A stretch of 54,125 nt of DNA, taken from a virus (taxonomy: Duplodnaviria; Caudoviricetes). Within the stretch, counting starts at the first letter, position 1. Each line of letters opens with the position of its first letter. The stretch lies in IMG/VR virus record IMGVR_UViG_3300048834_001323, positions 1 to 54,125 of that record. The stretch is one strand, 5' to 3'. Below, piece by piece: positions 358-51,288 of this stretch. The notes below the pieces were generated by a model that had not been told where the DNA came from, searched no databases, and saw only the letters and a list, made by a program, of their open reading frames with translations. The position numbers and the translations under genes are program-made.

Positions 358-368
358 AAAGGAACAAC

Positions 369-752: not shown

Positions 753-756
753 AAAC

Positions 757-1623
757 ATGGCCGGAGGCCAGCAAAGCATGGGAAGGCGTAAAAAAGAAGA
801 AGATTGGATTGATGACGAAGACGGGGCGATTATTCCTCCCGGCTCTAAATCTGTGGGCGACACGTCGCTGCACGAGCCTCTTCTTGGTCAAATACCACTA
901 AGCGCGCCAGTGCGATGGATTGACTGCATGGACGAATGCCCTTACCCTAATCCTGAAGTTGAGTTCATTCGCTCTCCGTTTCCCATTTCCCTTTCTGTAT
1001 TAGCCGCCAGATGGGAGGGGCTGTTCAAGATTCACGAAATCGAGCAGTTATACGCCTGCAATATGTGGTCGATGAAGCGTTCCCAGTATTGGGACGAAAT
1101 CAATAAACAGGTGCTTGACACCTACCAGACTGAAGATGCTCAATTCCACGTCCGGCTTCTTAAAGATGACATTCGCCGCTTCAGCAACATCCTCGACCGG
1201 CTTGACGGCGATCTCACGCAAGGCGTGGAATATCAGAAAGCGCGTGGAGGCGGCGGCTTTGGCTACGTCAAAATGCCCATGACGGTCGATAGCATCGTCA
1301 AACTGTCCAACGCCGCTGTCAACGTCTCCAACCTTCGGGCCACGCGCGCCGGTATCGCTACCAAAATCACGCGCGAAGAAAAAGATATTGGGAAGAATAT
1401 CAAGGAAGTTCTCGACAATCGCCGCGCTACTGATGATGAGGCTTACAAGGACTTGATCGAGATCGCTCAGATGGGAGGCAGGATATTCGATTCAGGAGAA
1501 ACTGAAAGTGGCGTCCCGATTCGGGATGTAACAGCCGAAGCGCGCGTGATGCCTAACGGTGAGTATTCCGTTGAGGACGAAGAATTGAAGCGCATTCGGG
1601 GTGACTATGGACAATCTGAATAA
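757..1623 (+). CDS. Hypothetical protein, terminase small subunit by position
   Basis: Long ORF directly upstream of and overlapping the large terminase; ATG at 757 preferred over 694. Confidence 0.45.
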   Translation: MAGGQQSMGRRKKEEDWIDDEDGAIIPPGSKSVGDTSLHEPLLGQIPLSAPVRWIDCMDECPYPNPEVEFIRSPFPISLSVLAARWEGLFKIHEIEQLYACNMWSMKRSQYWDEINKQVLDTYQTEDAQFHVRLLKDDIRRFSNILDRLDGDLTQGVEYQKARGGGGFGYVKMPMTVDSIVKLSNAAVNVSNLRATRAGIATKITREEKDIGKNIKEVLDNRRATDDEAYKDLIEIAQMGGRIFDSGETESGVPIRDVTAEARVMPNGEYSVEDEELKRIRGDYGQSE

Positions 1624-3244: not shown

Positions 3245-3252
3245 AAAATACC

Positions 3253-4689
3253 ATGCCTACACCTGAATCAGTCGTTATTGTCGATGAGCAAGTGAGCCGC
3301 GCGGCCAGTCCGACGACCGACGTTCTTCCTTTGCGCTCACCCTGGCAGTCGAAATACGGATCGCCAAACCTCTTGCCGCCTCCGCTGGAGCTTGGTAACG
3401 CGCCCTGGAATATGCCCGAAGACTTGAAGTGGGCCATGCTCCGCGACCCGCAGGTATTCGCCGGTTATATGTTATGGAAGACCGCTATTTTAGTAGACGG
3501 CGTGCAGATTCACCCGAATGCCAACATCAAAAAAGGCTCCAAGCGATTTGAGTTGGCGCGCGAGATAGCGGCGTTTTGCTTGTGGAACCTCAACAACATG
3601 AGAGGTGGTATTCACAGCAAGCTGCTTCAACTTCTCGATTCGTGTATTCAAGGGCAAAAAGCCGCCTCTCAGGTTTATCGCTTACAGAACTCAAAGCGGC
3701 TTCGTGAATACTTCCCCAACCTCCCGACCGGCAACGTCCTAACGCTGGATTATTTGCGCGTAATGCCGAATGATTCTTATCGGATTCGCACCGATGATTT
3801 TGGCGTCGTGGTCGGGTTGCAGGACGTTAATTCATCCGGCGAAAAAGACATCTATCCGATCTCCAAGTTCACGCATTGCGTGTTCCGGCCTTATGACGAT
3901 CATCCGCTCGGCACCAACATCCTGTGGCCTGCCTATATGCCCTGGTATGAAAAGCAGCAGATCGCGCCGGAGCGCTTGGCAAACATGACGCAGTTCGGCT
4001 CCCCGTCCTTCGTCGGTATCACGCCGGAGGGCATTAACAGCGTGGCGATGCTCGATCAATACGGTCAGCCAATGATTGTTGACGGCAGGCCGGTAGAAAT
4101 TCCCATCAACGCACACATGATGCAGGCCTTGCAGAATTTTCAAGGCAACGGCAACGCTACGGTTATTCCCTATGGCGGCGACCTGCGAAAGATTGAAGCA
4201 GCCAACGGCGGCGAGATATTCCGTTTTTATTCAGATGATAAGAACTTGGAAATAATGAAAGCTATGTTCTTTACCGCTAACTGGACGGAGCAAACTAAAA
4301 ATCCTTCTTCCGCTCAAAGCAAGGCTGGACAGGGCATTGGCGCGTTTTCGATTCAGGATGGAAAATACAACCTGGCCGATGCAGTCGAGGAATCGCTGCT
4401 TTACAACATGACCGTGATGAATTATGGGGAAGAAAACGAAGACCTTGTTCCCGACATTGCCTTTGGCACCAGTCGGCAGGAAACTGTTTCTTTAGCCAAT
4501 GCGGTCGCGGCTTTATGGTCAACCGGATTCTTTGACAACACGCAGCGCGTTCAGCTTTGCAAGGACTTGGGCCTGCCGGAGCCTGACCCCGATCAGCCGC
4601 CGATTAACCCGAACACTCCGAATAAACCAACCGGGAATGTCGATCCAGCAGGGGTCGGCAAGGATAATAGCGATGAAACAGACGACTGA
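3253..4689 (+). CDS. Portal protein (DUF935/Mu gp29-like)
   Basis: 478 aa after terL; P-x-G-x-x-I-L-x-P-A-Y-x-P-W-x-x-K and QFGSP segments typical of this portal family. Confidence 0.82.
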   Translation: MPTPESVVIVDEQVSRAASPTTDVLPLRSPWQSKYGSPNLLPPPLELGNAPWNMPEDLKWAMLRDPQVFAGYMLWKTAILVDGVQIHPNANIKKGSKRFELAREIAAFCLWNLNNMRGGIHSKLLQLLDSCIQGQKAASQVYRLQNSKRLREYFPNLPTGNVLTLDYLRVMPNDSYRIRTDDFGVVVGLQDVNSSGEKDIYPISKFTHCVFRPYDDHPLGTNILWPAYMPWYEKQQIAPERLANMTQFGSPSFVGITPEGINSVAMLDQYGQPMIVDGRPVEIPINAHMMQALQNFQGNGNATVIPYGGDLRKIEAANGGEIFRFYSDDKNLEIMKAMFFTANWTEQTKNPSSAQSKAGQGIGAFSIQDGKYNLADAVEESLLYNMTVMNYGEENEDLVPDIAFGTSRQETVSLANAVAALWSTGFFDNTQRVQLCKDLGLPEPDPDQPPINPNTPNKPTGNVDPAGVGKDNSDETDD

Positions 4690-4781
4690 AAACATGGTCA
4701 ATAGTCCATACTTTATTTTTGATAAAGAATTTATGGATAAAGTCGAAGAAATAAGAACTAATACTGAGGAGAAAAAAGATA

Positions 4782-6269
4782 ATGAGCATTCCCGGAATGT
4801 CGCAGGACAAGTGCAAACAAAGATCGCGCCTCGCCGCTCTAAGATATGATGTCAACGCCGTCCCGCTGCGCTTCATTGGCTCCAGCACCAGGCAGGCCAA
4901 CGAAGATTTTATGGAGTTAAAGACGGTCGGCAAGCTGCCCGAATCGAATGATTCGATCATGCGTCTCATTAACTCCAAACTGCCTGAAGGTTCTCCGCCT
5001 TTGACTTCCGATCAGGTGTATGTCCACTTCCACGAAGCGGCCAACAACAACTTCGTCTCGGATCGCTCGATGCACATGAGCGAGAAGACCTTGAAGAATA
5101 TCGGGCAGGATGCGGCGGCAGGCGTGGCATTTATGAACTCGCACCGGACTGGCGGAATGTCCAGCCCCTCCGAGCTTCCTTTTGGCCGCACCTTTGCCGG
5201 TCAGTATCAAGAAGGCTTTGACGATAACAAGCGCCCGATCCGTCGCTCGATCATTGGCGTGTATATGCTCAAAGGCACTCATCCCAATGGTCAGAACGGC
5301 CCCTCGACTGATGACTTGCATCAGGGCATCCTCTCCGGCACTATCTTCGACATCAGCGTTGGCTTGAGCGGCGGGGAGTATATTTGCGAGGTATGCAGCA
5401 ACCCTTTGAACGCGCGCGATGATGATGGCGAATATCTCTGCAACCATTATCCTGGCACCCACATGGGCATGACCAAAGAAGAAATACTTGCCCAAAAGAA
5501 AGCCGATCCGCAAAACACAAAAGGGCTGGCTTCTTATTTACTTGATGACGCGCATCTCAACGAAAGCTCTGCCGTTTACGATGGGGCCGTCCCCGGCGCT
5601 GGCATTAAGAAGGTAATGAGCTTCGCGCAAAGTTCTTCGATCAGTAAAGAGCAATTCCGCGAGTTGGTAACGGAGGCTTATCAGGAGTTCGGATCGCTCT
5701 TGCCGTTTGACATTTCAGAAATTGTTACATTAAATTTAGAAGGGGATTGCCAAACCAACGGGGAACATGATACAATCCCTTCCAATGGAGAAAAGTTTAT
5801 GAACAACGAAAACCAAAACGAAGATTCGCAGGAAGAAACTCAAGAAGATGAAGTCGAGGTTGTTACCGAAGATGAAAGTCTCGAAACACCCGATCCGGCT
5901 CCGGTTGCGGAGGCTCCTGTAGTCGAGACCGCTCCGGTTGCAGGTAAGCAAAACAACGCCAACAAGCATGGCCGCGCTGCGAAGTATTTCGTGGAGTCTC
6001 ATTTGTTGTCTAATCGTATTCTGCCTACCGAGTCCGAGTCGTTGACTAACCTCTATCTCGCCTGCGCCGAGCATGGCATCGAAGATGAGCTTGAAGCGTT
6101 TGTGGAAGCGCGTCCCGGCCATAAATTCACCAACGATGTCATCGCGCCTCGGCTGGATGGGAAGAATTACTCCACCCCGACCTTACCTCAAGATGCAGAA
6201 GATGCGTCCATCGAACAGGCCCGTAAAGACACCTCAAAGTTCTTGAACGGCGACAAAGCTAAAGTCTAA
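4782..6269 (+). CDS. Prohead protease with C-terminal scaffold region
   Basis: NSH, DISVG, CEVC..CNH and ESSAVYDGA motifs, then an acidic low-complexity C-terminal part. Confidence 0.72.
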   Translation: MSIPGMSQDKCKQRSRLAALRYDVNAVPLRFIGSSTRQANEDFMELKTVGKLPESNDSIMRLINSKLPEGSPPLTSDQVYVHFHEAANNNFVSDRSMHMSEKTLKNIGQDAAAGVAFMNSHRTGGMSSPSELPFGRTFAGQYQEGFDDNKRPIRRSIIGVYMLKGTHPNGQNGPSTDDLHQGILSGTIFDISVGLSGGEYICEVCSNPLNARDDDGEYLCNHYPGTHMGMTKEEILAQKKADPQNTKGLASYLLDDAHLNESSAVYDGAVPGAGIKKVMSFAQSSSISKEQFRELVTEAYQEFGSLLPFDISEIVTLNLEGDCQTNGEHDTIPSNGEKFMNNENQNEDSQEETQEDEVEVVTEDESLETPDPAPVAEAPVVETAPVAGKQNNANKHGRAAKYFVESHLLSNRILPTESESLTNLYLACAEHGIEDELEAFVEARPGHKFTNDVIAPRLDGKNYSTPTLPQDAEDASIEQARKDTSKFLNGDKAKV

Positions 6270-6334
6270 GACCTTCTTTTGGTCGCAGTAAAAGTCGCAC
6301 ACAAATAAACGTAGAATTTAACGGAGAAGACGAA

Positions 6335-7105
6335 ATGGGCAACGGAATTTTTGCAGAAGAACTGCCGGGAACCGGGACGCTAACTCAGGTTTTCGCTAAC
6401 GCGACCGGGATGCGTCAAAAAGTCGGTGGCGTTACGATTGACTGGTCGAAGGTCGCTGCTGCGGGAGCGGATGTTACATTCCCGGACGGCACCAAAATTT
6501 TGGCCGGTAAAAAATACTTGCGTTACGGCACGTTCATCGCCAAAATCACGCAGGTTGAAGTCAACACCGTCACCGTCGATGCGACGGGTGGCACCTTCAA
6601 GATTGGTGTTACGATTCGCGGCGTCACCGAGACAACGGCGGCGATTGTCGAAAACGCGACTCAAACGCAAGTTCAAACTGCTCTGGACGCGCTGTATATC
6701 GTTCAGCAGAATGGCGGCGTCACTGTCAGCACCGCTGGCAGCGTCCACACACTGACCTTCAATCAGCAGGCCGGTAACGTCACGGTCACAACTGACGCGG
6801 CATTGTTGACGGGTGGAGCGGGAACCGCAGCGGTCGTCGTCACGACCAATGGTGATGCGAATGCGGGGATGTATGGCCCGTATGATTCGACTGCTACCGA
6901 TGGCCGTCAAAACCGCAATCGCGGCGAGATTTTCTTCATCAACAAGACGGTGTTGGAAGATGATGAGATGTCGAATCATCCTCCGGCCTACGAAGGCGGC
7001 AACGTCTTTGTGGCGCGTCTTGATTTAGGCTCGGCTCCAAAACTGACTCGCGCTCAATGCGACACGGTTTTCCCGGACTTGAAATACACCTCGACCGCCA
7101 ATTAA
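6335..7105 (+). CDS. Head decoration protein with inserted surface domain
   Basis: Between scaffold and capsid; GKKYLRYGT..KIT / YGPYDSTATDGRQ flanking a T/V/A-rich insert. Confidence 0.7.
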   Translation: MGNGIFAEELPGTGTLTQVFANATGMRQKVGGVTIDWSKVAAAGADVTFPDGTKILAGKKYLRYGTFIAKITQVEVNTVTVDATGGTFKIGVTIRGVTETTAAIVENATQTQVQTALDALYIVQQNGGVTVSTAGSVHTLTFNQQAGNVTVTTDAALLTGGAGTAAVVVTTNGDANAGMYGPYDSTATDGRQNRNRGEIFFINKTVLEDDEMSNHPPAYEGGNVFVARLDLGSAPKLTRAQCDTVFPDLKYTSTAN

Positions 7106-7170
7106 ATTAGTTGCGCTTTTGCGCTCCAGCACATTCTCTATCGTATAAATTCACAGAACAGGAAAATCAA

Positions 7171-8313
7171 ATGAACTCAGCATTAGGTGTGGGTTGGAGC
7201 GCCGCTCTTACTCAAAAACGTCTTCAGGCCATTGTCGAAACAATCACTGCCGAACAACGCGCGGATAACCGGCTCGTCTTTCTTGGCCGCACTCCGATCA
7301 CGCCGTCCACCAACAAAGAGTTGATGGGAACCTTTGAAGGCGAGACGTATGCCGCCGACCTGATCATGGACGATCAGGCCGCAGTCGTGCATGATGTCGG
7401 CAAGTTCCAGTTCCAGAAGTCCAACATTGCCAACTTGAAACATGGTTTCTTGATGGGTCAGGAGCAAATCGAAGAACTGGAATACCTGATGATGCAGGAC
7501 GGCGGGGTTGGCAGCTTTGCGAATCAGTATTTGGCGCGTAACTATGCCCGTTTGATTCGCGGTATCCAGCATCGTTTGGAAGCCTTGATCGTTTCGGCTT
7601 ACCGCGACGAAACGGTTTACAACCGCTACGGCATCATCATTCGCGGCACATGGGGCATGCCAGCCGACCTCAAGATGGACGTGGAAACACCCTGGGATGA
7701 CGTAGACAACGCGACTCCGGTTGACGACTTGCAATACATGAAGAACGAAGTCGCGCCCGACATGGAAACCGAGTTTGATCGCGCCACCATGTCCCGCCGC
7801 TCGTTTGGTCAAATGGTTCGCACGAAGAACTTCCAGGACAAAGCCCGTATCATTGTCGGCACCGGCTTCAATCTCAACTTCGACATCCCGGACAATGCGT
7901 TCCCCAATGCGTTCGATGATCGCATGGTGAGCATGGCTGAAGCGGTTGTCGGCATGAGCTTTGAAATCTACGACGCTGGCCTCAAGGTCAAGAATGACGA
8001 TGGCTCCGTTACGCGCCATCGCACGCTGCCGCACAACGAAGTCATTCTTTCTTCTCGCGCCGTAGACAACAACCCCGAAGCTCTTGACGTGGGCAACGCG
8101 ATTGTGACGGAATCGTTGATGGCGGAATACGTCAACAACACCATCGTTGGCGGTCTGCCGAATCGCGTAAGCGGCCCCGTTGCCTACGCCGCGCCGACGA
8201 CTGCTGACCTGAACCCTCCGGGCATGACCGGATGGGGCGTGCAGCGCGCTTTCCCGCGCAAGTGGGACAAAGTGGCGACCGGCCTGATGCGTATCGGCAC
8301 CAGTCCTACCTAA
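7171..8313 (+). CDS. Major capsid protein (phage capsid E-like, HK97 fold)
   Basis: 380 aa after the decoration gene; WGMPADLK..PWDD..NATPVDDL segment; start at ATG 7171 after AGGA. Confidence 0.8.
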   Translation: MNSALGVGWSAALTQKRLQAIVETITAEQRADNRLVFLGRTPITPSTNKELMGTFEGETYAADLIMDDQAAVVHDVGKFQFQKSNIANLKHGFLMGQEQIEELEYLMMQDGGVGSFANQYLARNYARLIRGIQHRLEALIVSAYRDETVYNRYGIIIRGTWGMPADLKMDVETPWDDVDNATPVDDLQYMKNEVAPDMETEFDRATMSRRSFGQMVRTKNFQDKARIIVGTGFNLNFDIPDNAFPNAFDDRMVSMAEAVVGMSFEIYDAGLKVKNDDGSVTRHRTLPHNEVILSSRAVDNNPEALDVGNAIVTESLMAEYVNNTIVGGLPNRVSGPVAYAAPTTADLNPPGMTGWGVQRAFPRKWDKVATGLMRIGTSPT

Positions 8314-27246: not shown

Positions 27247-27852
27247 ATGGGAAACAGCTTTGATGTGAACAATGACGTAAAAGAGCCGGGAATCCGCGAG
27301 TGCTGGAAAGTCGTCTTAGCGATGGCGTTGTTTTTCTTCGCGTTCTGCATCGGCACAGTGTTTGTCGTTCGCTACCAAATCGGCCAAGAAGAAATTGCGC
27401 GCGCCGCATTAGCGCAAAAAGAACAGTCGGGTTTAGTTAAAATCAGCGCGGCGAAAGCGGCGAAAATTACGAAGAAACGGAAAACGAAAATGGTAAAAAT
27501 TGCACTTGGAACAACGAAGCAAGCGGATTTAGTGTCCACGCTTTGCACAATAGGCGCGCAAATACATGGTGCATCGGCTATCCAATACGGAATTCGGCCT
27601 CGCGGTGGCGGCGCTTGGGTAAAGCTGTATGACAGCGGCTCGCCACCATCGGATTGGGGCGTTGACGGTAGTGATAACGTGAAGGCGTCGGCTGATATTC
27701 CCCCCGGCGAATACGAATCGGTTTATGAAGTTCCTTATTCTTGCGACCCCGGCGGCCCCGATGCTCCCGGTTCCGGCACAGCGCAAAGAATTTGTGAATT
27801 TGAAGTCGTTTGCATCGAAAAAGTAGTCATCACTGCGACGAAAATCGACTAA
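27247..27852 (+). CDS. Hypothetical protein (N-terminal TM helix, Cys-containing beta domain); start uncertain
   Basis: ORF fills the gap between the methyltransferase and the GS-repeat gene. Confidence 0.5.
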   Translation: MGNSFDVNNDVKEPGIRECWKVVLAMALFFFAFCIGTVFVVRYQIGQEEIARAALAQKEQSGLVKISAAKAAKITKKRKTKMVKIALGTTKQADLVSTLCTIGAQIHGASAIQYGIRPRGGGAWVKLYDSGSPPSDWGVDGSDNVKASADIPPGEYESVYEVPYSCDPGGPDAPGSGTAQRICEFEVVCIEKVVITATKID

Positions 27853-27857
27853 ACATC

Positions 27858-29162
27858 ATGCCTCTCGATACCGACATCCCCTATCCCGAAGCGTGCAAAC
27901 AGGCGATCCGTATTTTGCGCTTGCGCGGCGTGCCGCCTGAGCTTTGGCCGGAAGAATACAGTCTGCTCGATTTGTATTACCATGATTCCGGCTCCGGCTC
28001 AGGGAGTGGCTCTGGTTCTTCTTGGACACTGATTTCATCCGGCATCGGCATCGGTGAACCGCGTGACATCGTGACGGGCTTCGACCTGACGCTTCCTTTT
28101 TGGATTCGCTTTGAAGGCGTGCAAGGCTCCGGCTCTGGTAGTGGTAGCGGCAGCGGCTCAGGTAGTGGTAGCGGCAGTGGAAGCGGCTCAGGTAGCGGTT
28201 CTGGTAGCGGCAGCGGCTCAGGTAGCGGTTCCGGTAGCGGTAGCGGCTCTGGCAGCGGTTCCGGCTCCGGCTCCGGCTCTGGCTCCGGTAGCGGCTCTGG
28301 CAGCGGCTCCGGCTCTGGCTCCGGCTCTGGCTCCGGCTCCGGCTCCGGCTCCGGCTCAGGTAGCGGCTCCGGTTCGGGAAGTGGGTCAGGCTCAGGCTGG
28401 AAGGACGACGACGGCGACGGCTGGCCGGATATTCCGGGAGGCGATCCTGACGATGATAATCCTGATGTTGGCGGCTTTATTGGCGATCCATCTGACGACT
28501 GGCCCGGAACTAATGGCGGCACAGGCGGCGATGGTATTGATGATGCGGGAAACACCAGTGCGACTGGATGCAAATACACGCTCTCGGCAAACCCGTTCCC
28601 CGAAGATGGCACCTATACCTATCAGTGGTATCTGGTCAATAACTTCATCAATACGACCATCGGGAGTCCTCCCGATGATTACGTGACGCCCGTAACAATG
28701 GGGACAAGCCAAACGCAAACGGTCGCCATCGCCTGCGGTAGAACGGCGGTTTATCAAGCGGACGTAACGCGCATGAGCGGCGAAACAGAACTTTGCACCA
28801 AGTCCGTCATTAGCCGCGTGATGTGTTCTTGCGGGGATTGTGATTTTGAGGTGACGAGCTTCCCGGCATCCGGCACTAAGGGTTCGTCTATTACAGTTGA
28901 GGGTTCAGGGCTTCAAGACACTTTCCTGTATCTCAACAGTGTGAGCGGGGATAAATTCTCTTCGATTAGCCAGAACACCAGTGACGACAACACTATCTCG
29001 TTTACGGTTCCTTCGACATGGAGCAATGGCTCAGGCTTTACGTCTATACCGAACGACACAGAAGTAACCATTTGGATATACGACAGGCTCGTAAGTCCGA
29101 CCTGCCGTAAGGGCTTCCCCTTCACAATCAACCCCTCCGGCAGCGGCAGCGGTGGCGGCTAA
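27858..29162 (+). CDS. Putative virion protein with poly(Gly-Ser) tract and Ig/IPT-like domains
   Basis: About 45 GS pairs, acidic DxDGDG stretch, C-terminal [20 protein letters not shown]; ATG 27858. Confidence 0.7.
28125..28397 (+). repeat. Gly-Ser codon repeat (91 codons, synonymous variation)
   Basis: GGN-TCN/AGY hexamer repeats with mixed codons. Confidence 0.95.
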
Positions 29163-35289: not shown

Positions 35290-35415
35290 AAAAAGGCGCT
35301 GCACTTAGAGGAACCGTCCAAGCCGTTCAGAAAGGGATGTGCGGCCCCAACTTGAACGGCTCCTCTAAAAGCAGCGCCTTATTGATCGCACATTTTAGCG
35401 GGTTCTGAAGCCCGA
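35290..35415 (-). ncRNA. C4/P4-CI-like structured leader RNA upstream of the primase
   Basis: Long interrupted hairpin 35294-35379 whose apical region is complementary to two 7-mers just upstream on the same transcript; U-run after the stem. Confidence 0.55.
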
Positions 35416-35422
35416 ACAACAA

Positions 35423-35431
35423 ATTATAACA
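35423..35431 (-). promoter_or_regulatory. Extended -10 promoter (TGTTATAAT)
   Basis: Perfect TGnTATAAT just upstream of the structured leader. Confidence 0.6.
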
Positions 35432-35466
35432 AAAATAATAGCGGAGCCAATCGGCCCCGCTATTAT
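35431..35466 (-). terminator. Rho-independent terminator after the SSB-like gene
   Basis: ATAATAGCGG/CCGCTATTAT stem followed by TTTT on the - strand. Confidence 0.65.
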
Positions 35467-35488
35467 CATTACTTCCTAAACGACCGAC

Positions 35489-45589: not shown

Positions 45590-46006
45590 TTACCATTCCG
45601 AATCTAATACGACGCTACCACTTTCCAACATTCGATCAATCTCGGATATAACACAATAACCGCGCCATCCATAAACTTCCTCGCATGATATAAGCTCGCC
45701 GTTATCGTCACGATCCGCAGTCATTGTATAAATGGTGCAATCGGTTAGTGCGCCAACTTCCTCAGGTCTTACAGTTTCAAGCGAAGAGTTTGCCCAATGT
45801 TCTTCTAATAGCGACCAAAGAAGATTATCATCATTTTGCCACATTGACGGGTGCCGTTTATAAGTCGCTTTTTCCTCAGCGATGTATCGGCGTCCTTTTC
45901 CTTTCAATACAATAATCATGCGTTGCTTATTGTAGAGAATTGTGGTGAGCTTGCCGCGCATTATTGTATAATCGGCGTTTTGTGTTGGATTCTTTTCTTT
46001 GTGCAT
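45590..46006 (-). CDS. Hypothetical early protein
   Basis: AGGAAGTAA leader; follows palindrome copy 1. Confidence 0.65.
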   Translation of the reverse strand: MHKEKNPTQNADYTIMRGKLTTILYNKQRMIIVLKGKGRRYIAEEKATYKRHPSMWQNDDNLLWSLLEEHWANSSLETVRPEEVGALTDCTIYTMTADRDDNGELISCEEVYGWRGYCVISEIDRMLESGSVVLDSEW

Positions 46007-46060
46007 TTTGTTACTTCCTATTGCCTAAAGGCACGCCTAAAGGCTAAATTAGATTTTGAG

Positions 46061-46127
46061 TTCTAACACTCACTGCAACGGCGCGCCATTATAAGCAATG
46101 GCGCGCCGCTGAGTGTGAAAGTTAGGT
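46061..46127. repeat. Intergenic attC-like imperfect palindrome, copy 1
   Basis: TTCTAACACTCACTGCAACGGCGCGCC-N12-GGCGCGCCGCTGAGTGTGAAAGTTAGGT. Confidence 0.85.
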
Positions 46128-46136
46128 ATAAGGCGA

Positions 46137-46988
46137 TTAATCTTCTAATGCTATGCAAGCGCATAAAGGAATAGGATAATTACATCCTTTGCACTTTTCG
46201 ACTTTTGCTTTATGACGCCGATTATAGCGCGTCTTTGCCTTATAAGACGATTGATTATCGCCTTTCCAATTATCCGCATTGATGCCGCCATATTCGCGCC
46301 GCGCGATATAATTTTGCAGCTTCGCACTTTTGGAGCTATGATCCGGCGCGCCATATTTTTGATTGATGACGGTATAACCGGCCTTTTCTAATTGGCAAAC
46401 TACTTCCATAGCAATATCGCGCATTGATTCTTTGATATAAGAATCGCGGCAATCTTCAAAAGTATCAGACTCATAAACGTCTTCTGATTCAAAGCCCCAA
46501 CATGAATGGCTATAAGTTTCGCCGTCTTCATCTTCATAATCGCACACGATGCCAAAACATGAGACGCGATCCGTATAAACTTTTTTGATATAAGCGATAG
46601 TTGTTTGGATGTTGGCGGCTATGTTTTCCGCTTGCACTTGCTTGCTCGCGCCCTTATTCCAACCATTGCCCCAATCATCTTTTTTGGCCTTGTCTTTGTC
46701 TATAAGGATAATGGAATATTCGCGCCAACCATCACGCCAAAAATATCCGCGCGCGTCTTCTAATGATTCGCGCAAACTTTCGTTATAAGAGTATGAATAC
46801 TCTTCTTTAGTTGCCGCAAACTTATCGGCGCTGATAACTTCATGTTCATACCCATCATAATCAAACCACTTATAATCCTCATCATGCTCCAGCTTGACAT
46901 TGGCTAAAATGTCTTTGAAGTCAATTATTGCATTGACTTCTTTGGTAATGATCAGCTTGTCTTCTTTGCGTTCCGTTGTTGTGTTCAT
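46137..46988 (-). CDS. Hypothetical early protein (D/E/Y-rich)
   Basis: 283 aa; AGGAAGTAA leader; SCWGF motif. Confidence 0.7.
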   Translation of the reverse strand: MNTTTERKEDKLIITKEVNAIIDFKDILANVKLEHDEDYKWFDYDGYEHEVISADKFAATKEEYSYSYNESLRESLEDARGYFWRDGWREYSIILIDKDKAKKDDWGNGWNKGASKQVQAENIAANIQTTIAYIKKVYTDRVSCFGIVCDYEDEDGETYSHSCWGFESEDVYESDTFEDCRDSYIKESMRDIAMEVVCQLEKAGYTVINQKYGAPDHSSKSAKLQNYIARREYGGINADNWKGDNQSSYKAKTRYNRRHKAKVEKCKGCNYPIPLCACIALED

Positions 46989-47067
46989 TGTCTTACTTCC
47001 TATAAGTAAAATTTTTGTGTCTTACTTCTTACTTCTTACAACTTGCGACCAAAAGAAAAGGCGCGCC

Positions 47068-47343
47068 TATAACTGCGACAGCGGCGCGCCAATAACTGCG
47101 ACAGCGGCGCGCCTATAACTGCGACAGCGGCGCGCCAATAACTGCGACAGCGGCGCGCCAATAACTGCGACAGCGGCGCGCCTATAACTGCGACAGCGGC
47201 GCGCCAATAACTGCGACAGCGGCGCGCCTATAACTGCGACAGCGGCGCGCCTATAACTGCGACAGCGGCGCGCCAATAACTGCGACAGCGGCGCGCCAAT
47301 AACTGCGACAGCGGCGCGCCAATAACTGCGACAGCGGCGCGCC
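47068..47343. repeat. Tandem array, 12 x 23 bp
   Basis: (A/T)ATAACTGCGACAGCGGCGCGCC; only the first base varies. Confidence 0.95.
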
Positions 47344-47356
47344 TATATAACTTCCT

Positions 47357-47767
47357 TTAGCTTGCGAGATAATAATACTCTTGACCTTTATAAGTGATTG
47401 ACGAATAATCATGCAGCAACTCTTTTGCGGCATACTCCCAATCAATACAATAAAAAGGCCATTGATTAGAGTTTGGCATCCCGCAAGTATCTTCCGCTAA
47501 TTCCTGAGCATACTCTTCAAAGTCATCTTCTAAAATCAATGTGACGCCGTGTATAAACTCACTGCCAATCTCTTCAGCGATTGATTCTAATTCCTTTAAC
47601 TCTTCGCCGTCTTTGCTGCTATTCCAGGCCGTTAAAAAGTCTTCGCACTCTTCGCACTCTTCGCAACTATCGCACTCTTCGCGCTCGTCATTCAAGGCAT
47701 CTTCGCGCAAACTTTCTAACTCTTCGATCCGTTCTTTTAATTCTCTTGTGTCAATTCGTGCGTCCAT
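47357..47767 (-). CDS. Highly acidic protein, ArdA-like antirestriction/DNA-mimic candidate
   Basis: Very D/E-rich; FEEYAQELAED..CIDWEYAAKEL..DY resembles the ArdA C-terminal region. Confidence 0.55.
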   Translation of the reverse strand: MDARIDTRELKERIEELESLREDALNDEREECDSCEECEECEDFLTAWNSSKDGEELKELESIAEEIGSEFIHGVTLILEDDFEEYAQELAEDTCGMPNSNQWPFYCIDWEYAAKELLHDYSSITYKGQEYYYLAS

Positions 47768-47809
47768 TGATTTTACTTCCTATAAATAAGATTTGAGTTG
47801 TAAGCGATT

Positions 47810-47877
47810 AGCTAACACTCACGGCAACGGCGCGCCAATATCATATAAAGGCGCGCCGCTGAGTGTGAAAGTTAGTT
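47810..47877. repeat. Intergenic attC-like imperfect palindrome, copy 2
   Basis: AGCTAACACTCACGGCAACGGCGCGCC-N13-GGCGCGCCGCTGAGTGTGAAAGTTAGTT. Confidence 0.85.
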
Positions 47878-47948
47878 TATGGCCTATGGCCTGTAAAGCA
47901 TAAAACGATTCGCGCTATAGTGACTTTGCGCGCTGATATTAAAATGGT

Positions 47949-48611
47949 TTAGCTTGCTAAGTTTGGCGCGCTATCCATTGATTCGACTAATGATTCAATG
48001 TCTACCCAGTAATCAGTGCCGTTTTGATTCTCAAAGTAAACATTTTCGGATTCCATAGCGGCCAAAAGAAGAGAATAGACTTCGCTATCTTCTTTTTGGT
48101 TAAGTTCCTCTTCGCGCTCAGGAAACTTTTTGACAAGCGCGCTAATAAAATCTTCTTTTATATAGCCATTAGTGAAACTTTCATATTGCCATTTTAATTC
48201 TAATTCGCTATGCAAATCTTCATCACATAATGGGTAATCGCACAACTTTTGAAGCAATTCGATCAATTCGTTAGACTCTTCAGTATTGGCGGTTAAAAAA
48301 TCAATACCGATATAAACCGATTCACCGCCATAGCTCCAATTTTCAATCAGAATTGATTCATTATCAGCATAATCACGCTTGAAAAATTCCACGTTTGCGG
48401 CTTGCACACTGCCGTTATGGTAGTCTGAGAATGAGAGAATGTCTAACGCGATATAATCGCCAGCTTGCAATTCGTTTGCACTTTCCACGCGATCATACTT
48501 TGAATAAAGGCCTTCGCGCATAATGTCACACTTTAAGGCCGTTTTACCTGTTACCAATTCCGTTAAAAAATTGGCGTGCTCTGTTGTGAGTTGACTAAAC
48601 ATTTTTTGCAT
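47949..48611 (-). CDS. Acidic early protein
   Basis: 220 aa; SDY..AN..LCDYPLCDEDLHSELE; conserved leader. Confidence 0.7.
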   Translation of the reverse strand: MQKMFSQLTTEHANFLTELVTGKTALKCDIMREGLYSKYDRVESANELQAGDYIALDILSFSDYHNGSVQAANVEFFKRDYADNESILIENWSYGGESVYIGIDFLTANTEESNELIELLQKLCDYPLCDEDLHSELELKWQYESFTNGYIKEDFISALVKKFPEREEELNQKEDSEVYSLLLAAMESENVYFENQNGTDYWVDIESLVESMDSAPNLAS

Positions 48612-48645
48612 TTTTCTTACTTCCTGTAAATTAGATTTAAGTGTT

Positions 48646-48713
48646 AGCTAACACTCACGGCAGCGGCGCGCCAATAATAAGTAAAGGCGCGCCGCTGAAT
48701 GTGAAAGTTAGGA
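48646..48713. repeat. Intergenic attC-like imperfect palindrome, copy 3
   Basis: AGCTAACACTCACGGCAGCGGCGCGCC-N13-GGCGCGCCGCTGAATGTGAAAGTTAGGA; overlaps the stop codon of the upstream gene. Confidence 0.85.
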
Positions 48714-48950
48714 GTAAACTAATTGATCCAGTTCTTTTTGTGGCACTTTGCGCGCAAACTCATAACCGGCTTTTTTAATGTGTCGCGTTGTGGTAGCACT
48801 CCATTTTTCACAAGTTTGGACGAAATCGCCATTTGAAAGTTGCGCCGCTACTGGAGTCTCATAAGAAAACAACACTGTTACGGCAGTTGGCGCGCCTTTG
48901 GGCGTATACGTCAACTCGGTGCAGTTTGGAGCAATTTGTTTAATTCGCAT
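48708..48950 (-). CDS. Small early phage protein
   Basis: VLFSYETPVAA..WSATTTRHI motif; conserved leader; first ORF after the early promoters. Confidence 0.7.
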   Translation of the reverse strand: MRIKQIAPNCTELTYTPKGAPTAVTVLFSYETPVAAQLSNGDFVQTCEKWSATTTRHIKKAGYEFARKVPQKELDQLVYS

Positions 48951-49074
48951 TTTTTTTACTTCCTGTAAATTAGATTTTACGACTAAAGGCGCGCCGCTAA
49001 TCGCAAACGGTTAAAATTCTAAAATCAATTCGCGCCGGTTTCACTTCTCTTTTCTAATCTGTTATTTTATTTAT

Positions 49075-49755
49075 TTATTCCTTTTTGAATTGTGAGTCCA
49101 AAAAGGAGCGCGCCCACTGTAGCGATTAGGTTAGAAAACTAATCGCACGCGCTCATGTTTGCTGATAATCAATCTTTGTGATTATGTTTGGTTCGGACGC
49201 CTTACGGCGCGCTACCATGTCATTATCAGCACTCATGCCACGTTATTATGATTCGTAAACTTTGCATTAAAGAAGTGATATAGAATAACGCTAAACTTTT
49301 GGAATTTTGGCGCGTTAGTTTAGGTTTAATCCATATTATCACGCGTTATTATTCACTGTTAAAAGTCGCATTTTCGCACACTGGGACAAACTTTAGTTTG
49401 TATGCTTTATTGCTATTTTTACGAATCGAATTATCAAGGATCAAACTTTCAAAAAGTATTTTTACGGATAACAGTTTGCTTTATTAGTATCACGGCGCGA
49501 ATTTTCGCGTTTATCCGCTAACATTGCCCCTACACTGCGATCCTAACACTTTATGAAGTTGTGTTTTACGACTTGAGATAATGAGAAATTGAAAAGATTT
49601 TAGCGTTCGCAAGTTTAGAGATAATACAGATTATAGGCGCATTGCCAACTGCGTTATTCATTCGTGCTAATGACTTTATGTGACTTCTTTTCGTTATTCT
49701 CTTTTCTCTTTGGTGCAATGTCAGTTCCGAAAATTTCTTTTCTCGACTGCGATGA
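49075..49755 (-). ncRNA. Candidate large structured non-coding RNA / early leader
   Basis: No credible ORF; more than 12 nested stems including long-range ones; GNRA-capped stem on the - strand; begins at the predicted TSS. Confidence 0.6.
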
Positions 49756-49759
49756 ATCT

Positions 49760-49788
49760 ATTCTATCAGCTATCCGCTTGTGTGTCAA
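49760..49788 (-). promoter_or_regulatory. Strong sigma70-type early promoter, copy 1
   Basis: TTGACA-17 nt-TAGAAT with an A-rich upstream tract. Confidence 0.85.
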
Positions 49789-49869
49789 CTGTTAGAGAAG
49801 ATTTATTTTTCTGATTAGATATTGCCCTGAGGCGTGCTCAACTTCGCTTCTTTCTAATCAGATGAATCT

Positions 49870-49898
49870 ATTCTATCAGCTATCCGCTTGCGTGTCAA
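49870..49898 (-). promoter_or_regulatory. Strong sigma70-type early promoter, copy 2
   Basis: Part of a 59-bp direct repeat (49751-49809 and 49861-49919; one mismatch). Confidence 0.85.
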
Positions 49899-49933
49899 CT
49901 GTTAGAGAAGATTTATTTTATTTCTTTTTTTTG

Positions 49934-50112
49934 GCGCGCGTGCTGATGCTCCAGTGCTGATGACGTGGCGCGCGTGCTGCTGACCATGAGCGCGCGTGCT
50001 GATGACCGAGCAGCGCGCGTGCTGATGACCGAGCAGCGCGCGTGCTGATGACCGAGCAGCGCGCGTGCTGATGACCGAGCAGCGCGCGTGCTGATGACCG
50101 AGCAGCGCGCGT
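49934..50112. repeat. Tandem array, 5 perfect x 23 bp plus degenerate copies
   Basis: GCGCGCGTGCTGATGACCGAGCA at 49990-50104. Confidence 0.95.
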
Positions 50113-50189: not shown

Positions 50190-50515
50190 CTTTTTTGTGC
50201 CGGATTTTGTGCCGCATTTTTCCAAAAAGTGCCGCTTGTGCCAGATTATTTTTTGGGAGTGCCGGATTTTGGTGGGTTGAGTGACTTATTATCAAGGAAG
50301 TTGAGTAAAAATAATCCGGCACTTTTTCGAAAAATGCGGCACAAAGTGCCGGATTCAATGACACGTGCTTTATACTATGTAAATACAAAGTGCCGCTTTT
50401 GACGGATTTTTTTCTTTGATTAAGAGTGCAAAGAAAACAGAAAACACATTAAAATCTTTTTGCTTTTTTATTCACACTACAAAGTGCACTTTGATGCGTC
50501 ACAAGCGGCACTTTC
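50190..50515. repeat. Cluster of GTGCCG iteron-like motifs in both orientations (candidate origin or packaging site)
   Basis: GTGCCG at 50197, 50209, 50229, 50259, 50346, 50390 and CGGCAC at 50317, 50337, 50506, in AT-rich DNA. Confidence 0.65.
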
Positions 50516-50885
50516 TCATTTTAATCCTACTTTGCACGACAATACGCCATTTTTCTATCATAATACAAATTATATTACTTAATGTCTTATTGACTCCCTC
50601 CCTCCCGTCTTTTTTGTTGACCCCACCCCGATCCACAGGCGTGGGCAGGTGCGTAAATATACCGAGGTAACTCCCGAAAAGTTTTCAATATCTAAACAAA
50701 AAAGGAAGAAATAAGCTCGATTCACAACGAAAACCACTTCTTTCTGGTCACGCCCCAATCGAGTTACGACTGAGCCAATAAACATCCACCACAAGCCGCC
50801 TCCGAGCCTCCAACGCGCCCTGGGCCACGACCGAGCCACTATCGCCCTGCCGATCTACAGCCTCCAACCACTCATAGCATTGAAT

Positions 50886-50914
50886 TTGACACTACGAATT
50901 TTCCATGTTACAAT
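50886..50914 (+). promoter_or_regulatory. Sigma70-type rightward promoter
   Basis: TTGACA-17 nt-TACAAT with extended -10 TG. Confidence 0.75.
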
Positions 50915-50922
50915 CCGTTCTT

Positions 50923-51288
50923 ATGAACAACTTCCTCGCCTTTGCCCTCGGCTCCATCATCACCTGCTTCCTTATGCTCGTTCCGGTATGGGTTGATTCA
51001 ATCAAGCGGCAGAAAATCATCGCCGCCGTCACCGACACCTTCATCCCTCTGCGAAACCTGCTCGTGCAGTCCGAGTCGCACCTCTTCCTCATCCGCCAAA
51101 AGCAGATCGAGGACTTGTCCAGCCTCACCGAGCAGGACGGCCTCATCGACCGCTTGGAACAAAAACACGAGCGCATCCAGCAGGACGAACATTACTTTAC
51201 GACCGTCGAAGAAGCTCACCGCGCCGTAGAACGGCTCAAAGAACTCGTCCATCAAGACGAAAACCACCTTCTTTGGCCGCTCGACTAA
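50923..51288 (+). CDS. Membrane-anchored coiled-coil protein, probably near-leaderless
   Basis: N-terminal TM helix; ATG 8 nt after the -10 box. Confidence 0.6.
   Translation: MNNFLAFALGSIITCFLMLVPVWVDSIKRQKIIAAVTDTFIPLRNLLVQSESHLFLIRQKQIEDLSSLTEQDGLIDRLEQKHERIQQDEHYFTTVEEAHRAVERLKELVHQDENHLLWPLD

What the first reader, a model, noticed from the sequence alone, without database searches (positions are those of the whole stretch)
46061..48713. Early genes separated by ~68-bp attC-like palindromes: a cassette-like array in a phage with no integrase
Seen: three near-identical intergenic elements (46061, 47810, 48646) and a half copy near 48985, each CTAAC-ACTCAC..GCARCGGCGCGCC-variable AT loop-GGCGCGCCGCTGARTGTGAAA-GTTAG. 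In copy 3 the upstream gene's TAA lies inside the CCTAAC end, and each copy is followed by an RBS leader and an ORF. Known: integron attC sites are imperfect palindromes bounded by RYYYAAC and GTTRRRY, often overlap the cassette stop codon and carry inner boxes like CTGCAGCGG..CCGCTGAG. Inference: either attC-derived sites that let a host integron integrase or homologous recombination shuffle early (anti-defence) genes, or RNase III-type processing/stabilising hairpins as in the T7 early region. Caveat: box spacing is about 1 nt off canonical and the R boxes fit the consensus only partly.
Basis: partly seen in the sequence, partly recalled or inferred. Interest (0 to 1): 0.8.

Follow-up and report, generated by a model that had tools for sequence, protein, structure and literature searches.

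The report
Repeated hairpins between phage early genes
Three near-identical hairpin-forming repeats separate the first genes of an uncultured phage's early operon; they look like RNA processing or stabilising signals of the phage T7 kind, not integron recombination sites.

Summary
Three 63-64-nt imperfect palindromes (46063-46125, 47812-47875, 48648-48711) share nearly invariant arms and a variable AT-rich loop. A one-arm remnant lies at about 48985-49015. The genes are on the minus strand. The repeats lie between small ORFs of a leftward operon, downstream of two tandem sigma-70-like promoters and an ~800-nt leader. One ORF is ArdA-like and several are very acidic. Each repeat precedes a conserved RBS leader.

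As sense RNA each folds into about two helical turns (22 bp, one mismatch, one 3x2 internal loop; -36 to -39 kcal/mol). Sense folds better than antisense in 3 of 3.

The attC reading fails the tests I could run by hand: the spacer is paired, there are no extrahelical bases, the full R-box consensus is met in 2 of 12 checks, and the window holds no tyrosine recombinase.

Best reading (0.5): intercistronic RNA hairpins processed by host RNase III and/or stabilising 3' ends, as in the T7 early region.

Main rival (0.2): DNA sites for a factor that reads GGCGCGCC. The same 12-mer also forms a 12.5 x 23-bp tandem array in the fourth intergenic gap.

No relative could be fetched, so gene turnover at the repeats is untested. 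Interest is moderate.

The parts
48648..48711 (-). Hairpin copy 3, between the 80-aa and 220-aa genes. Its 5' CTAAC contains the TAA stop of the 80-aa gene.
   Evidence: 100.8 bits; sense RNA -37.4 kcal/mol
47812..47875 (-). Hairpin copy 2, between the 220-aa and 136-aa (ArdA-like) genes.
   Evidence: 97.9 bits; sense RNA -35.7 kcal/mol
46063..46125 (-). Hairpin copy 1, between the 283-aa and 138-aa genes. Four extra loop-proximal pairs extend the inner stem.
   Evidence: 93.5 bits; sense RNA -38.9 kcal/mol
48985..49015 (-). One-arm remnant upstream of the first gene. It keeps the sense-strand 5' arm and the first 4 loop bases, joined directly to the conserved leader. It does not fold.
   Evidence: (z -0.8)
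47060..47347 (-). 12.5 x 23-bp tandem array in the gap between the 136-aa and 283-aa genes. The unit is GGCGCGCC plus the inner part of the sense 3' arm plus the last 5 loop bases. As RNA it can fold into one long quasi-palindromic duplex.
   Evidence: D1; -189 kcal/mol, z -6.0
48612..48647 (-). Conserved leader with RBS (AAATCTAATTTACAGGAAGTAA, then 6 nt, then ATG) for the 220-aa gene. Like leaders lie at 48951-48984, 47768-47811, 46989-47020 and 46007-46062.
   Evidence: D3, D5; AGGAAGTAA on the minus strand only at 48964, 48625, 47781, 47001, 46019 and 35477
48708..48950 (-). First early gene, 80 aa (phrog_5643, unknown function).
47949..48611 (-). Early gene, 220 aa, acidic (pI 4.1), no family.
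47357..47767 (-). Early gene, 136 aa, very acidic (pI 4.05), ArdA-like antirestriction protein (probable).
   Evidence: phrog_2059, E 2.9e-7; 5 of 18 family members hit PF07275; the window's own protein does not
46137..46988 (-). Early gene, 283 aa, uncharacterised family (106 representative clusters at E <= 1e-3).
45590..46006 (-). Early gene, 138 aa, no family.
49760..49898 (-). Two tandem sigma-70-like promoters (each TTGACA, 17 nt, TAGAAT, with TG; 11 of 12 matches), 110 nt apart, inside a duplicated 73-nt module. They point at the early operon.
   Evidence: (D6)
48951..49755 (-). Untranslated, structured leader of about 800 nt between the promoters and the first early gene.
   Evidence: z -4.2 on 20 shuffles

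Best explanation
The three palindromes act as RNA. Host RNA polymerase starts at two tandem strong promoters near 49.8-49.9 kb and transcribes leftwards. It passes an ~800-nt leader and a string of small early genes, including an ArdA-like antirestriction gene and other very acidic proteins.

In this polycistronic RNA each intercistronic repeat folds into a hairpin of about two helical turns: a 5-bp helix, a U.U mismatch, a 5-bp helix, a 3x2 internal loop, a 12-bp GC-rich helix, and an AU-rich loop.

I infer that these hairpins punctuate the transcript. Host RNase III cuts at or near the internal loop, and/or the hairpin blocks 3' exonucleases. Each upstream cistron then ends in a protective hairpin. 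Each downstream cistron starts with the conserved leader and RBS.

Shown: the position, orientation, fold and strand bias of the repeats, the conserved leader, the promoters, and the absence of a U-tract. Inferred: transcription as one RNA, cleavage by RNase III, and any effect on stability or translation.
For: 1. Position. All three copies are intergenic in one co-oriented gene string. They start 0-73 nt after a stop codon and end 36-56 nt before the next ATG.

2. Promoters. Two 11-of-12 sigma-70-like promoters point into the string. No RNA polymerase-sized ORF is apparent in the ORF list; I ran no RNA polymerase family search.

3. Fold. There are 22 pairs, and 66 of 66 cells are paired on the sense strand, against 26-46% when the partners are slid by 1-3 columns. 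z is -6 to -9. E. coli RNase III substrates typically have two helical turns, and internal loops limit cleavage to one strand, which leaves a stabilising 3' hairpin (PMC1540722 and PMC3867540, passages read).

4. Strand bias. Sense RNA is more stable than antisense in 3 of 3 copies (by 5.7, 5.2 and 0.2 kcal/mol). This is because 5 of the 66 cells are G.U on the sense strand and would be A.C on the other.

5. Selection on the arms. Variable columns number 3 of 51 in the arms against 7 of 13 in the loop (Fisher p = 2.5e-4). The three arm changes are either unpaired or switch G-C to G.U.

6. T7 comparison, run here. The five intergenic spaces of the T7 early region each hold a hairpin, and these form a repeat family with conserved arms and variable loops. 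T7 also has three tandem host promoters and an antirestriction gene first. That these are the five RNase III signals rests on PMC3867540 plus my recall of their positions.

7. Independent analogue. Metagenome contig L111 shares only one gene family with the window. It carries at least 13 hairpins of its own family, one after nearly every early ORF. Five of 11 core pairs show compensatory changes, and sense folds better than antisense in 7 of the 8 copies inside the gene string.

8. The three hairpins are not intrinsic terminators: 0 of 3 appear among the 10 terminator-like sites found, and none is followed by a T-run.
Against: - There is no RNA evidence at all. No sequencing run could be listed.
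- With three nearly identical copies there is no covariation: 21 of 22 pairs never vary. The strand bias rests on two independent positions.
- The arms are conserved in sequence, not only in pairing, and they contain a self-complementary 8-mer (GGCGCGCC). A plain hairpin does not need this.
- The same 12-mer, CAGCGGCGCGCC, also occurs as 12 direct repeats in the tandem array and once in the one-arm remnant. This suggests that the half-site itself is recognised.
- A GC-only inner helix could carry RNase III antideterminants by the E. coli rules (PMC1540722). The host and its RNase III are unknown, and the phage encodes none.
- In L111, 5 copies outside the gene string show no strand bias. Over all 13 copies only 8 fold better in sense.
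Confidence: 0.5

Rival explanations
1. The repeats are DNA-level protein sites. A dimeric phage or host factor reads the two-fold symmetric GGCGCGCC (within CAGCGGCGCGCC). It occupies the palindromes (two sites 20-21 bp apart) and the 23-bp array (13 sites). It acts as an operator or roadblock system over the early operon, comparable to mycobacteriophage stoperators.
For: - The 12-mer with at most 1 mismatch occurs 19 times between 46076 and 48999 and once elsewhere (27633, 1 mismatch). It appears as inverted pairs, as 12 direct repeats and as one solitary copy.
- GGCGCGCC occurs 22 times against 2.07 expected, all within 3 kb.
- Site spacing of 20-23 bp would place bound proteins on one face of the helix.
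- The arms are conserved in sequence, not just in pairing.
- L111 likewise has an invariant CCGCA/TGCGG core and solitary half-sites in non-coding DNA.
- A second 23-bp array (49954-50112) sits just upstream of the early promoters.
Against: - Complementarity runs 10 pairs beyond the 12-mer, more than a dimer operator needs.
- The imperfections are G.U on the sense strand only.
- All copies have one orientation relative to transcription.
- The two 23-bp array units are no more alike than shuffled units: 11 of 23 matches, p = 0.76. They do not point to one binder.
- No candidate binder was identified. The only regulator found is a PadR-like protein. The 283-aa gene next to the array has no known family.
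Confidence: 0.2
2. The repeats are recombination junctions. They would be attC-like single-strand hairpin sites used by a host integron integrase or another structure-specific recombinase. Or they would simply be ~100-bp stretches of homology (hairpin plus leader) that let early genes be gained, lost or shuffled as cassettes.
For: - A CTAAC...GTTAG core, a 63-64-nt length, a variable loop and overlap with a stop codon resemble attC.
- Hairpin and leader modules of 87-97% identity flank unrelated genes.
- The one-arm remnant and the tandem array look like products of deletion and slippage at the GGCGCGCC core.
Against: - The unpaired central spacer and extrahelical bases are absent in 3 of 3 copies. 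The full R-box heptamers are met in 2 of 12 checks (against PMC5027507).
- The window holds no tyrosine recombinase.
- The conserved leader after every site is not a cassette feature.
- In L111 the shared gene family is flanked by L111's own hairpin type, so the hairpins belong to the operon and not to the gene.
- No excised or rearranged form could be looked for.
Confidence: 0.06
3. The repeats are factor-dependent transcription stops or pauses. The very stable hairpins would act as attenuators between early genes, read through only with a phage or host antiterminator, and would time expression along the operon.
For: - The stems are very stable, -36 to -39 kcal/mol.
- A similar GGCGCGCC-core hairpin in another phage contig (L035) is a classic terminator with a T-run.
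Against: - None of the three is followed by a U-tract, and none was listed by the terminator scan.
- Real T-run terminators do exist elsewhere in the window, for example 35430-35470. The host polymerase therefore seems to use ordinary ones.
Confidence: 0.1
4. The repeats are selfish or neutral palindromic repeats of the REP or MITE kind. They would have spread in the AT-rich early region without a role for the phage.
For: The copies are near-identical within one genome and nothing alike is seen elsewhere. There are traces of slippage and deletion.
Against: - The arms are held constant while the loop and flanks have diverged (p = 2.5e-4).
- Placement is strict: one per intergenic gap, in one orientation.
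- The 22-nt arm pattern has no exact match in genomes of 185,579 species, 241 million metagenome records or 2.9 million viral contigs.
Confidence: 0.08

Closest known systems
RNase III processing signals of the phage T7 early region (R0.3, R0.5, R1, R1.1, R1.3)
   Same: - Tandem strong host-type promoters feed a polycistronic early transcript that carries an antirestriction gene (first in T7, third here).
- There is one hairpin per intergenic gap.
- The hairpins form a repeat family with conserved arms and variable loops, and the helix is interrupted by an internal loop.
   Basis: PMC3867540 and PMC1540722 passages.
   Different: - There is no sequence similarity to the T7 sites.
- The stems here are much stronger: -36 to -39 kcal/mol, against -17 to -26 for the T7 intergenic windows folded.
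- The inner helix is GC-only and contains a self-complementary 8-mer.
- One arm also exists as a tandem array.
- Cleavage is unproven and the host is unknown.
Start-associated sequences and extended SAS (SAS/ESAS) of Cluster K mycobacteriophages
   Same: A short conserved motif at the RBS of a subset of non-structural genes is preceded in many cases by imperfect inverted repeats with a variable spacer of 4-13 bp. Its function is still unknown (PMC3203893 and PMC12699233, passages read). Here AGGAAGTAA precedes the five early genes plus one other gene, and a palindrome with a 13-nt spacer precedes three of them.
   Different: - The sequences differ: the SAS consensus is absent here.
- The arms here are 25-26 nt, against 17.
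- There are only three copies, against 11-19 SAS per genome.
- The phage and probably the host are unrelated.
- I did not see the supplementary site lists of either paper.
Integron attC sites
   Same: An imperfect hairpin of 57-141 nt with AAC/GTT-containing ends and a variable terminal loop, placed at the 3' end of ORFs in a co-oriented array. Copies within one sedentary array can be highly similar (PMC5027507, passages read).
   Different: There is no unpaired central spacer, no extrahelical bases, and a poor fit to the heptamer consensus. No integrase, attI or Pc was found in the window. A conserved leader follows each site.
Intergenic hairpin family of metagenome contig L111 (uncharacterised)
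   Same: An AT-rich early-type gene string has one long hairpin after nearly every ORF, with an invariant GC-rich core in the stem, an AT-rich loop of about 13 nt and a sense-strand folding bias.
   Different: The core sequence is different (CCGCA/TGCGG). There are at least 13 copies, with compensatory changes in 5 of 11 core pairs. The contig shares only one gene family with the window.

Membership tests
Integron attC site | Imperfect hairpin of 57-141 nt with a variable terminal structure | tested here: met
   The elements are 63-64 nt. Loop columns are variable in 7 of 13. Definition from PMC5027507.
Integron attC site | R box: 5'-RYYYAAC-3' paired with 5'-GTTRRRY-3' | tested here: not met
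   The CTAAC/GTTAG core is present in 3 of 3 copies. The full heptamers fit in only 2 of 12 checks (3 copies x 2 ends x 2 strands): ACCTAAC of copy 1 on the sense strand and GTTAGGT of copy 1 on the plus strand. Read.
Integron attC site | Unpaired central spacer of 5-6 nt on each arm between the R and L boxes | tested here: not met
   The corresponding positions form a 5-bp helix, flanked by a 1x1 mismatch and a 3x2 loop, in 3 of 3 copies. This holds with RNA and with DNA parameters.
Integron attC site | Extrahelical bases on one arm (G at position 16, T at 23/24, with a 6-bp stem between them) | tested here: not met
   There is no single-sided bulge on either strand. Positions 17-28 form an unbroken 12-bp helix in 3 of 3 copies.
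Integron attC site | Integron integrase (tyrosine recombinase) with attI and Pc next to the array | tested here: not met
   PF00589 gives 0 matches at E <= 1 in the window, while 14 of 14 control genomes match. Caveat: the record is 67% complete and the host is unknown.
Integron attC site | Score with the attC covariance or HMM models (IntegronFinder, HattCI); IntI-dependent recombination | not testable with these tools
   These models are not available here, and Rfam holds no attC family that matched. The recombination test is an experiment.
RNase III processing signal of a phage early mRNA (T7 type) | Lies between cistrons of a polycistronic early transcript made by host RNA polymerase | tested here: met
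   Co-oriented ORFs lie downstream of two strong promoter-like sites, and the hairpins are intergenic. Transcription itself is inferred.
RNase III processing signal of a phage early mRNA (T7 type) | About two helical turns of dsRNA, often interrupted by an internal loop | tested here: met
   22 pairs plus a 1x1 mismatch and a 3x2 loop; 66 of 66 cells paired. Criterion from PMC1540722.
RNase III processing signal of a phage early mRNA (T7 type) | Base pairs at the proximal and distal boxes compatible with binding and cleavage | tested here: inconclusive
   The rules are defined for E. coli RNase III (PMC1540722). The host is unknown, and the GC-only inner helix could carry antideterminants. No cleavage site can be assigned.
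RNase III processing signal of a phage early mRNA (T7 type) | Cleaved by RNase III in vivo or in vitro | not testable with these tools
   No RNA run could be listed. The phage encodes no RNase III.
Cluster K SAS/ESAS | 13-bp SAS consensus at the start site, and 17-bp imperfect inverted repeats just upstream | tested here: not met
   The arrangement is alike but the sequences differ. The leader here is TTTAYAGGAAGTAA and the arms are 25-26 nt. Consensus from PMC3203893. This is an analogy, not membership.
Intrinsic (Rho-independent) terminator | GC-rich hairpin followed directly by a U-tract | tested here: not met
   0 of 3 hairpins are among the 10 terminator-like sites found, and no T-run follows within 10 nt.
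Host REP/MITE-type palindromic repeat | Many dispersed copies in bacterial chromosomes | tested here: inconclusive
   The 22-nt arm pattern has 0 exact matches in genome contigs, metagenome contigs or viral contigs. The host genome itself is not identified.

The most novel reading that the evidence does not exclude
The hairpins, the one-arm remnant and the 23-bp array would together form one sequence-specific code for the early operon. A dimeric factor, from the phage or the host, would recognise the two-fold symmetric GGCGCGCC duplex, either in the RNA stem or in DNA. It would set the boundaries, stability or silencing of each early anti-defence gene. The ~100-bp hairpin-plus-leader modules would also serve as the junctions at which such genes are swapped, expanded or deleted. 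This would be a phage-borne cassette system that works without an integron integrase.
Probability: 0.15. Interest if true: 0.65.

Novelty: new variant of a known kind. Interest (0 to 1): 0.35.

Why it matters
If the best reading holds, a phage with no cultured relative has arrived at the T7 plan for its first minutes of infection. That plan is strong host promoters, an antirestriction gene, and hairpin punctuation of one long early RNA. This phage's terminase is at most 31% identical to any in 50,697 phage records. Hairpin punctuation would then be a recurrent design rather than a T7 peculiarity.

The same design appears with a third, unrelated hairpin family in contig L111, and in outline in the unexplained SAS/ESAS motifs of Cluster K mycobacteriophages. 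The window therefore gives a compact, testable case (three sites, one array, one remnant) for asking what such motifs do.

For annotation, it shows that CTAAC...GTTAG-ended palindromes after ORFs are not enough to call attC sites.

Tried and rejected
- Relatives by DNA. The exact arm patterns found nothing in viral, metagenome or genome contigs. A looser GC-core palindrome found 53 viral loci with one site each. The model R1 scored these at 36 bits or less. The best one, in L035, is an ordinary T-run terminator. I looked at no other of the 53.
- Relatives by protein. The 220-aa, 356-aa and primase proteins found no close relative in viral contigs. Blastn and tblastn against phage and plasmid records gave only distant hits.
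- Terminase relatives. 
- The 80-aa gene's relatives (L009-L019) have no such hairpins.
- Homologues of the 356-aa gene (87 loci) share only that gene with the window. Of the 38 loci of at least 6 kb, only L111 shows a comparable hairpin series, and L114 has two similar hairpins just before RBSs.
- Rfam: only sub-threshold microRNA-like hairpin hits.
- RNA evidence: no RNA holder was listed and no run was listed.
- One binder for both 23-bp arrays: rejected as unsupported, because the units match 11 of 23 (p = 0.76).
- A promoter inside the hairpin, with a -35-like TTCACA in the arm and a -10-like TAnnAT in the loop. Only copy 2 has a spacer within 16-18 nt. The others have 20 nt, and such hexamers are expected in AT-rich loops.
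- Paralogy of the flanking genes as the source of the repeats: rejected. Only short low-complexity matches were found, E >= 0.005.
- Function of the 283-aa gene beside the array: no Pfam, PDB or atlas assignment.


Full report
**What is there**

The window is a 54,125-nt viral record classed as a provirus and estimated 67% complete. It ends inside an open reading frame. Structural genes run rightwards over 1-31 kb. They include a terminase, portal, major head protein, an 1871-aa ORF that I take by size and position to be the tape measure (no family search), and tail genes. A leftward block over 32-49 kb holds a primase/helicase, a DNA methylase, a PadR-like regulator and many small ORFs.

The finding lies at the far, AT-rich end of that block: 38-48% GC over 45-50 kb, against 50% for the window. 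The genes there are on the minus strand: 80 aa (48950-48708), 220 aa (48611-47949), 136 aa (47767-47357), 283 aa (46988-46137) and 138 aa (46006-45590).

Three elements, at 46063-46125, 47812-47875 and 48648-48711, are near-identical imperfect palindromes.
- A covariance model built from them finds no other full-length match above 17 bits in the window. The three copies score 93.5-100.8 bits, but they match by construction.
- They fold at -36.8 to -40 kcal/mol, with z from -6 to -9. None of 200 shuffles per copy folds as well.
- The stop codon of the 80-aa gene lies inside the CTAAC end of copy 3.
- The half copy at about 48985-49015 keeps only the sense-strand 5' arm and four loop bases. It is fused to the conserved leader of the first gene and does not fold (z -0.8).

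**Anatomy in the direction of transcription**

Two promoter-like sites that match the sigma-70 consensus in 11 of 12 positions, each with an extended -10, lie 110 nt apart on the minus strand (49898-49870 and 49788-49760). They sit inside a duplicated module. An untranslated, structured leader of about 800 nt follows, then the five genes.

Four of the five junctions hold a GGCGCGCC-bearing element:
- the remnant, before gene 1;
- a hairpin, between genes 1 and 2;
- a hairpin, between genes 2 and 3;
- a 12.5 x 23-bp tandem array, between genes 3 and 4;
- a hairpin, between genes 4 and 5.

Every gene start is preceded by TTTAYAGGAAGTAA, 5-6 nt, then ATG. AGGAAGTAA occurs on this strand only at these five starts and at 35477.

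GGCGCGCC occurs 22 times against 2.07 expected, all in 46080-48995. The 12-mer CAGCGGCGCGCC, with at most one mismatch, occurs 19 times in the 46076-48999 region and only once elsewhere (27633, one mismatch).

The flanking genes are not paralogues, so the repeats are not left over from gene duplication.

**The genes**

Three of the early proteins are very acidic, with pI 4.05-4.2. The 136-aa protein matches a PHROG annotated as antirestriction protein (E 2.9e-7). Among its 17 non-self homologues, 3 are named antirestriction protein by a source. On rescanning, 5 of 18 family members match Pfam ArdA, though the window's own protein does not. The others have no family. 'Early anti-defence genes' is therefore plausible for one gene and open for the rest.

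**The fold and what constrains it**

On the sense (minus) strand each element forms, in order:
- 5 bp;
- a U.U mismatch;
- 5 bp;
- a 3x2 internal loop;
- 12 bp (16 in copy 1);
- an AU-rich loop.

There are 22 pairs, and all 66 cells are paired. When the partners are slid by 1-3 columns, 26-46% pair.

Five of the 66 cells are G.U. These become A.C on the other strand, so sense RNA is more stable than antisense in 3 of 3 copies, by 5.7, 5.2 and 0.2 kcal/mol.

Variation is concentrated in the loop (7 of 13 columns) and the flanks. Only 3 of 51 arm columns vary (p = 2.5e-4), and those three changes are either unpaired or switch G-C to G.U.

There is no covariation, because the copies are too alike: 21 of 22 pairs never vary. 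The arms are thus held constant in sequence, which is more than pairing alone requires.

**Not attC**

I took the defining features from PMC5027507 (passages).
- Met: the length, the variable loop and the CTAAC/GTTAG core.
- Not met: the 5-6-nt unpaired central spacer. A 5-bp helix stands there in 3 of 3 copies.
- Not met: extrahelical bases. There is no single-sided bulge, and the 12-bp inner helix is unbroken.
- Not met: the heptamer consensus, which fits in 2 of 12 checks.
- Not met: PF00589 finds no tyrosine recombinase in the window, while it finds one in 14 of 14 control genomes.

The conserved leader after each site is also foreign to cassettes. I could not run the IntegronFinder or HattCI models. 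An integrase could lie in the missing third of the phage or in the host, so I keep a small probability for this reading.

**Not terminators, and not a known RNA family**

None of the three hairpins is among the 10 terminator-like sites found, and none is followed by a T-run. Ordinary T-run terminators do exist elsewhere in the window. Rfam gives only sub-threshold hairpin-like hits.

**Comparison with T7, run here**

I fetched T7 bases 1-8200. Three tandem E. coli promoters precede the ocr antirestriction gene. Each of the five intergenic spaces of the early region folds into a hairpin. The five hairpins align as a repeat family with conserved arms and variable loops, at a mean column identity of 66%.

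The review PMC3867540 speaks of five RNase III processing signals in the ~7000-nt T7 early precursor. It also says that single-strand cleavage at loops or bulges leaves stabilising 3' hairpins. PMC1540722 gives two helical turns as the typical substrate length. That the five spaces I folded are those five signals rests on my recall of their positions.

The window's elements share this whole plan. They differ in being far more stable and in having a GC-only inner helix.

**An independent analogue**

Homologues of the window's 356-aa gene occur in many unrelated phage contigs that share only that gene with the window. One of them, L111 (41% GC), carries at least 13 hairpins of its own family, one after nearly every early ORF. 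The core is an invariant CCGCA/TGCGG, and 5 of 11 core pairs show compensatory changes. Sense RNA folds better than antisense in 7 of the 8 copies inside the gene string. Over all 13 copies the count is only 8.

The Cluster K mycobacteriophage SAS/ESAS motifs have the same outline: an RBS-linked motif preceded by imperfect inverted repeats with a variable spacer. Their function is still unknown (PMC3203893 and PMC12699233, passages). I did not see their supplementary site lists.

**What does not fit neatly**

The self-complementary 8-mer in both arms, the conservation of the arms in sequence, and the reuse of one arm as a 23-bp direct-repeat array and as a solitary remnant all suggest that the half-site itself is recognised. 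The recogniser could be a protein acting on DNA or on the RNA stem.

The array RNA can also fold into one long imperfect duplex (-189 kcal/mol, z -6.0), so it is not decisive either way.

A second 23-bp array (49954-50112) sits just upstream of the early promoters. Its unit is no more like the first than shuffled units are: 11 of 23 matches, p = 0.76.

**Limits**

No relative's DNA could be fetched. Terminase relatives of 51-97% identity exist only in the protein database, and the DNA collections gave 30% at best. Conservation, covariation and gene turnover at the repeats are therefore untested.

**Verdict**

- The attC reading is not supported.
- The best explanation is T7-like intercistronic RNA hairpins (0.5).
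- The main rival is a DNA-level GGCGCGCC-reading factor (0.2).
- The sequence family is new: it is not in Rfam and has no match in any collection scanned.
- I rate it a new variant of a known kind, of moderate interest.

Noticed in passing
window 49954-50112: A second tandem array, 7.1 x 23 bp (unit GTGCTGATGACCGAGCAGCGCGC), lies directly upstream of the -35 of the outer early promoter. It has the same period as the array at 47060-47347, but the units are not significantly alike (11 of 23 matches, p = 0.76).
   Followed up: partly
window 49737-49919: A 73-nt module is duplicated 110 nt apart at 90% identity. Each copy carries a near-consensus extended -10 promoter on the minus strand.
   Followed up: partly
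window 50190-50520: The divergent non-coding region is full of GTGCCG-type motifs. It holds two long inverted repeats: 50206-50234 with 50317-50345 (29 nt, 97% complementary), and 50387-50407 with 50494-50514. It may be an origin or a control region.
   Followed up: no
window 48951-49755: An ~800-nt stretch between the promoters and the first early gene has no convincing ORF. It folds more stably than shuffles (z -4.2) and has no Rfam match.
   Followed up: partly
window 50886-50930: A rightward near-consensus promoter (TTGACA, 17 nt, TACAAT) lies so close to the ATG near 50924 that the mRNA would be almost leaderless. The ORF looks like a small membrane protein. It is followed by a MazG-like protein and an M15 peptidase, which suggests a lysis block.
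   Followed up: no
window 47640-47686: A 9-bp tandem repeat (5.2 copies) inside the ArdA-like gene encodes a Glu/Cys-rich run.
   Followed up: no
window 35290-35480: Between the 390-aa gene and the primase gene lie a classic T-run terminator (about 35430-35470) and a second large hairpin with a T-run (about 35300-35380). The AGGAAGTAA motif also occurs here, at 35477.
   Followed up: partly
whole window: GCGC, and GCGCGC/CGCGCG, are over-represented along most of the genome: GCGC mostly about 1.3-3-fold (up to about 10-fold in the early region), the hexamers up to about 9-fold outside the early region. This may be a host signature.
   Followed up: no
window 28261-28340: A run of GGCTCC/GGCTCT repeats lies inside the 450-aa ORF 27810-29162. 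It would encode a Gly-Ser repeat linker in what, by its place among the tail genes, may be a tail-fibre protein (no family search).
   Followed up: no
L111 1-11305: A metagenome contig with at least 13 intergenic hairpins of its own family (invariant CCGCA/TGCGG core). Solitary half-sites lie in a ~5-kb gene-poor upstream region.
   Followed up: partly
L114 9000-9024 and 10686-10713: Two similar GC-rich hairpins lie immediately upstream of RBS and start codons, flanking the homologue of the 356-aa gene in a 63% GC contig. The layout resembles ESAS.
   Followed up: no
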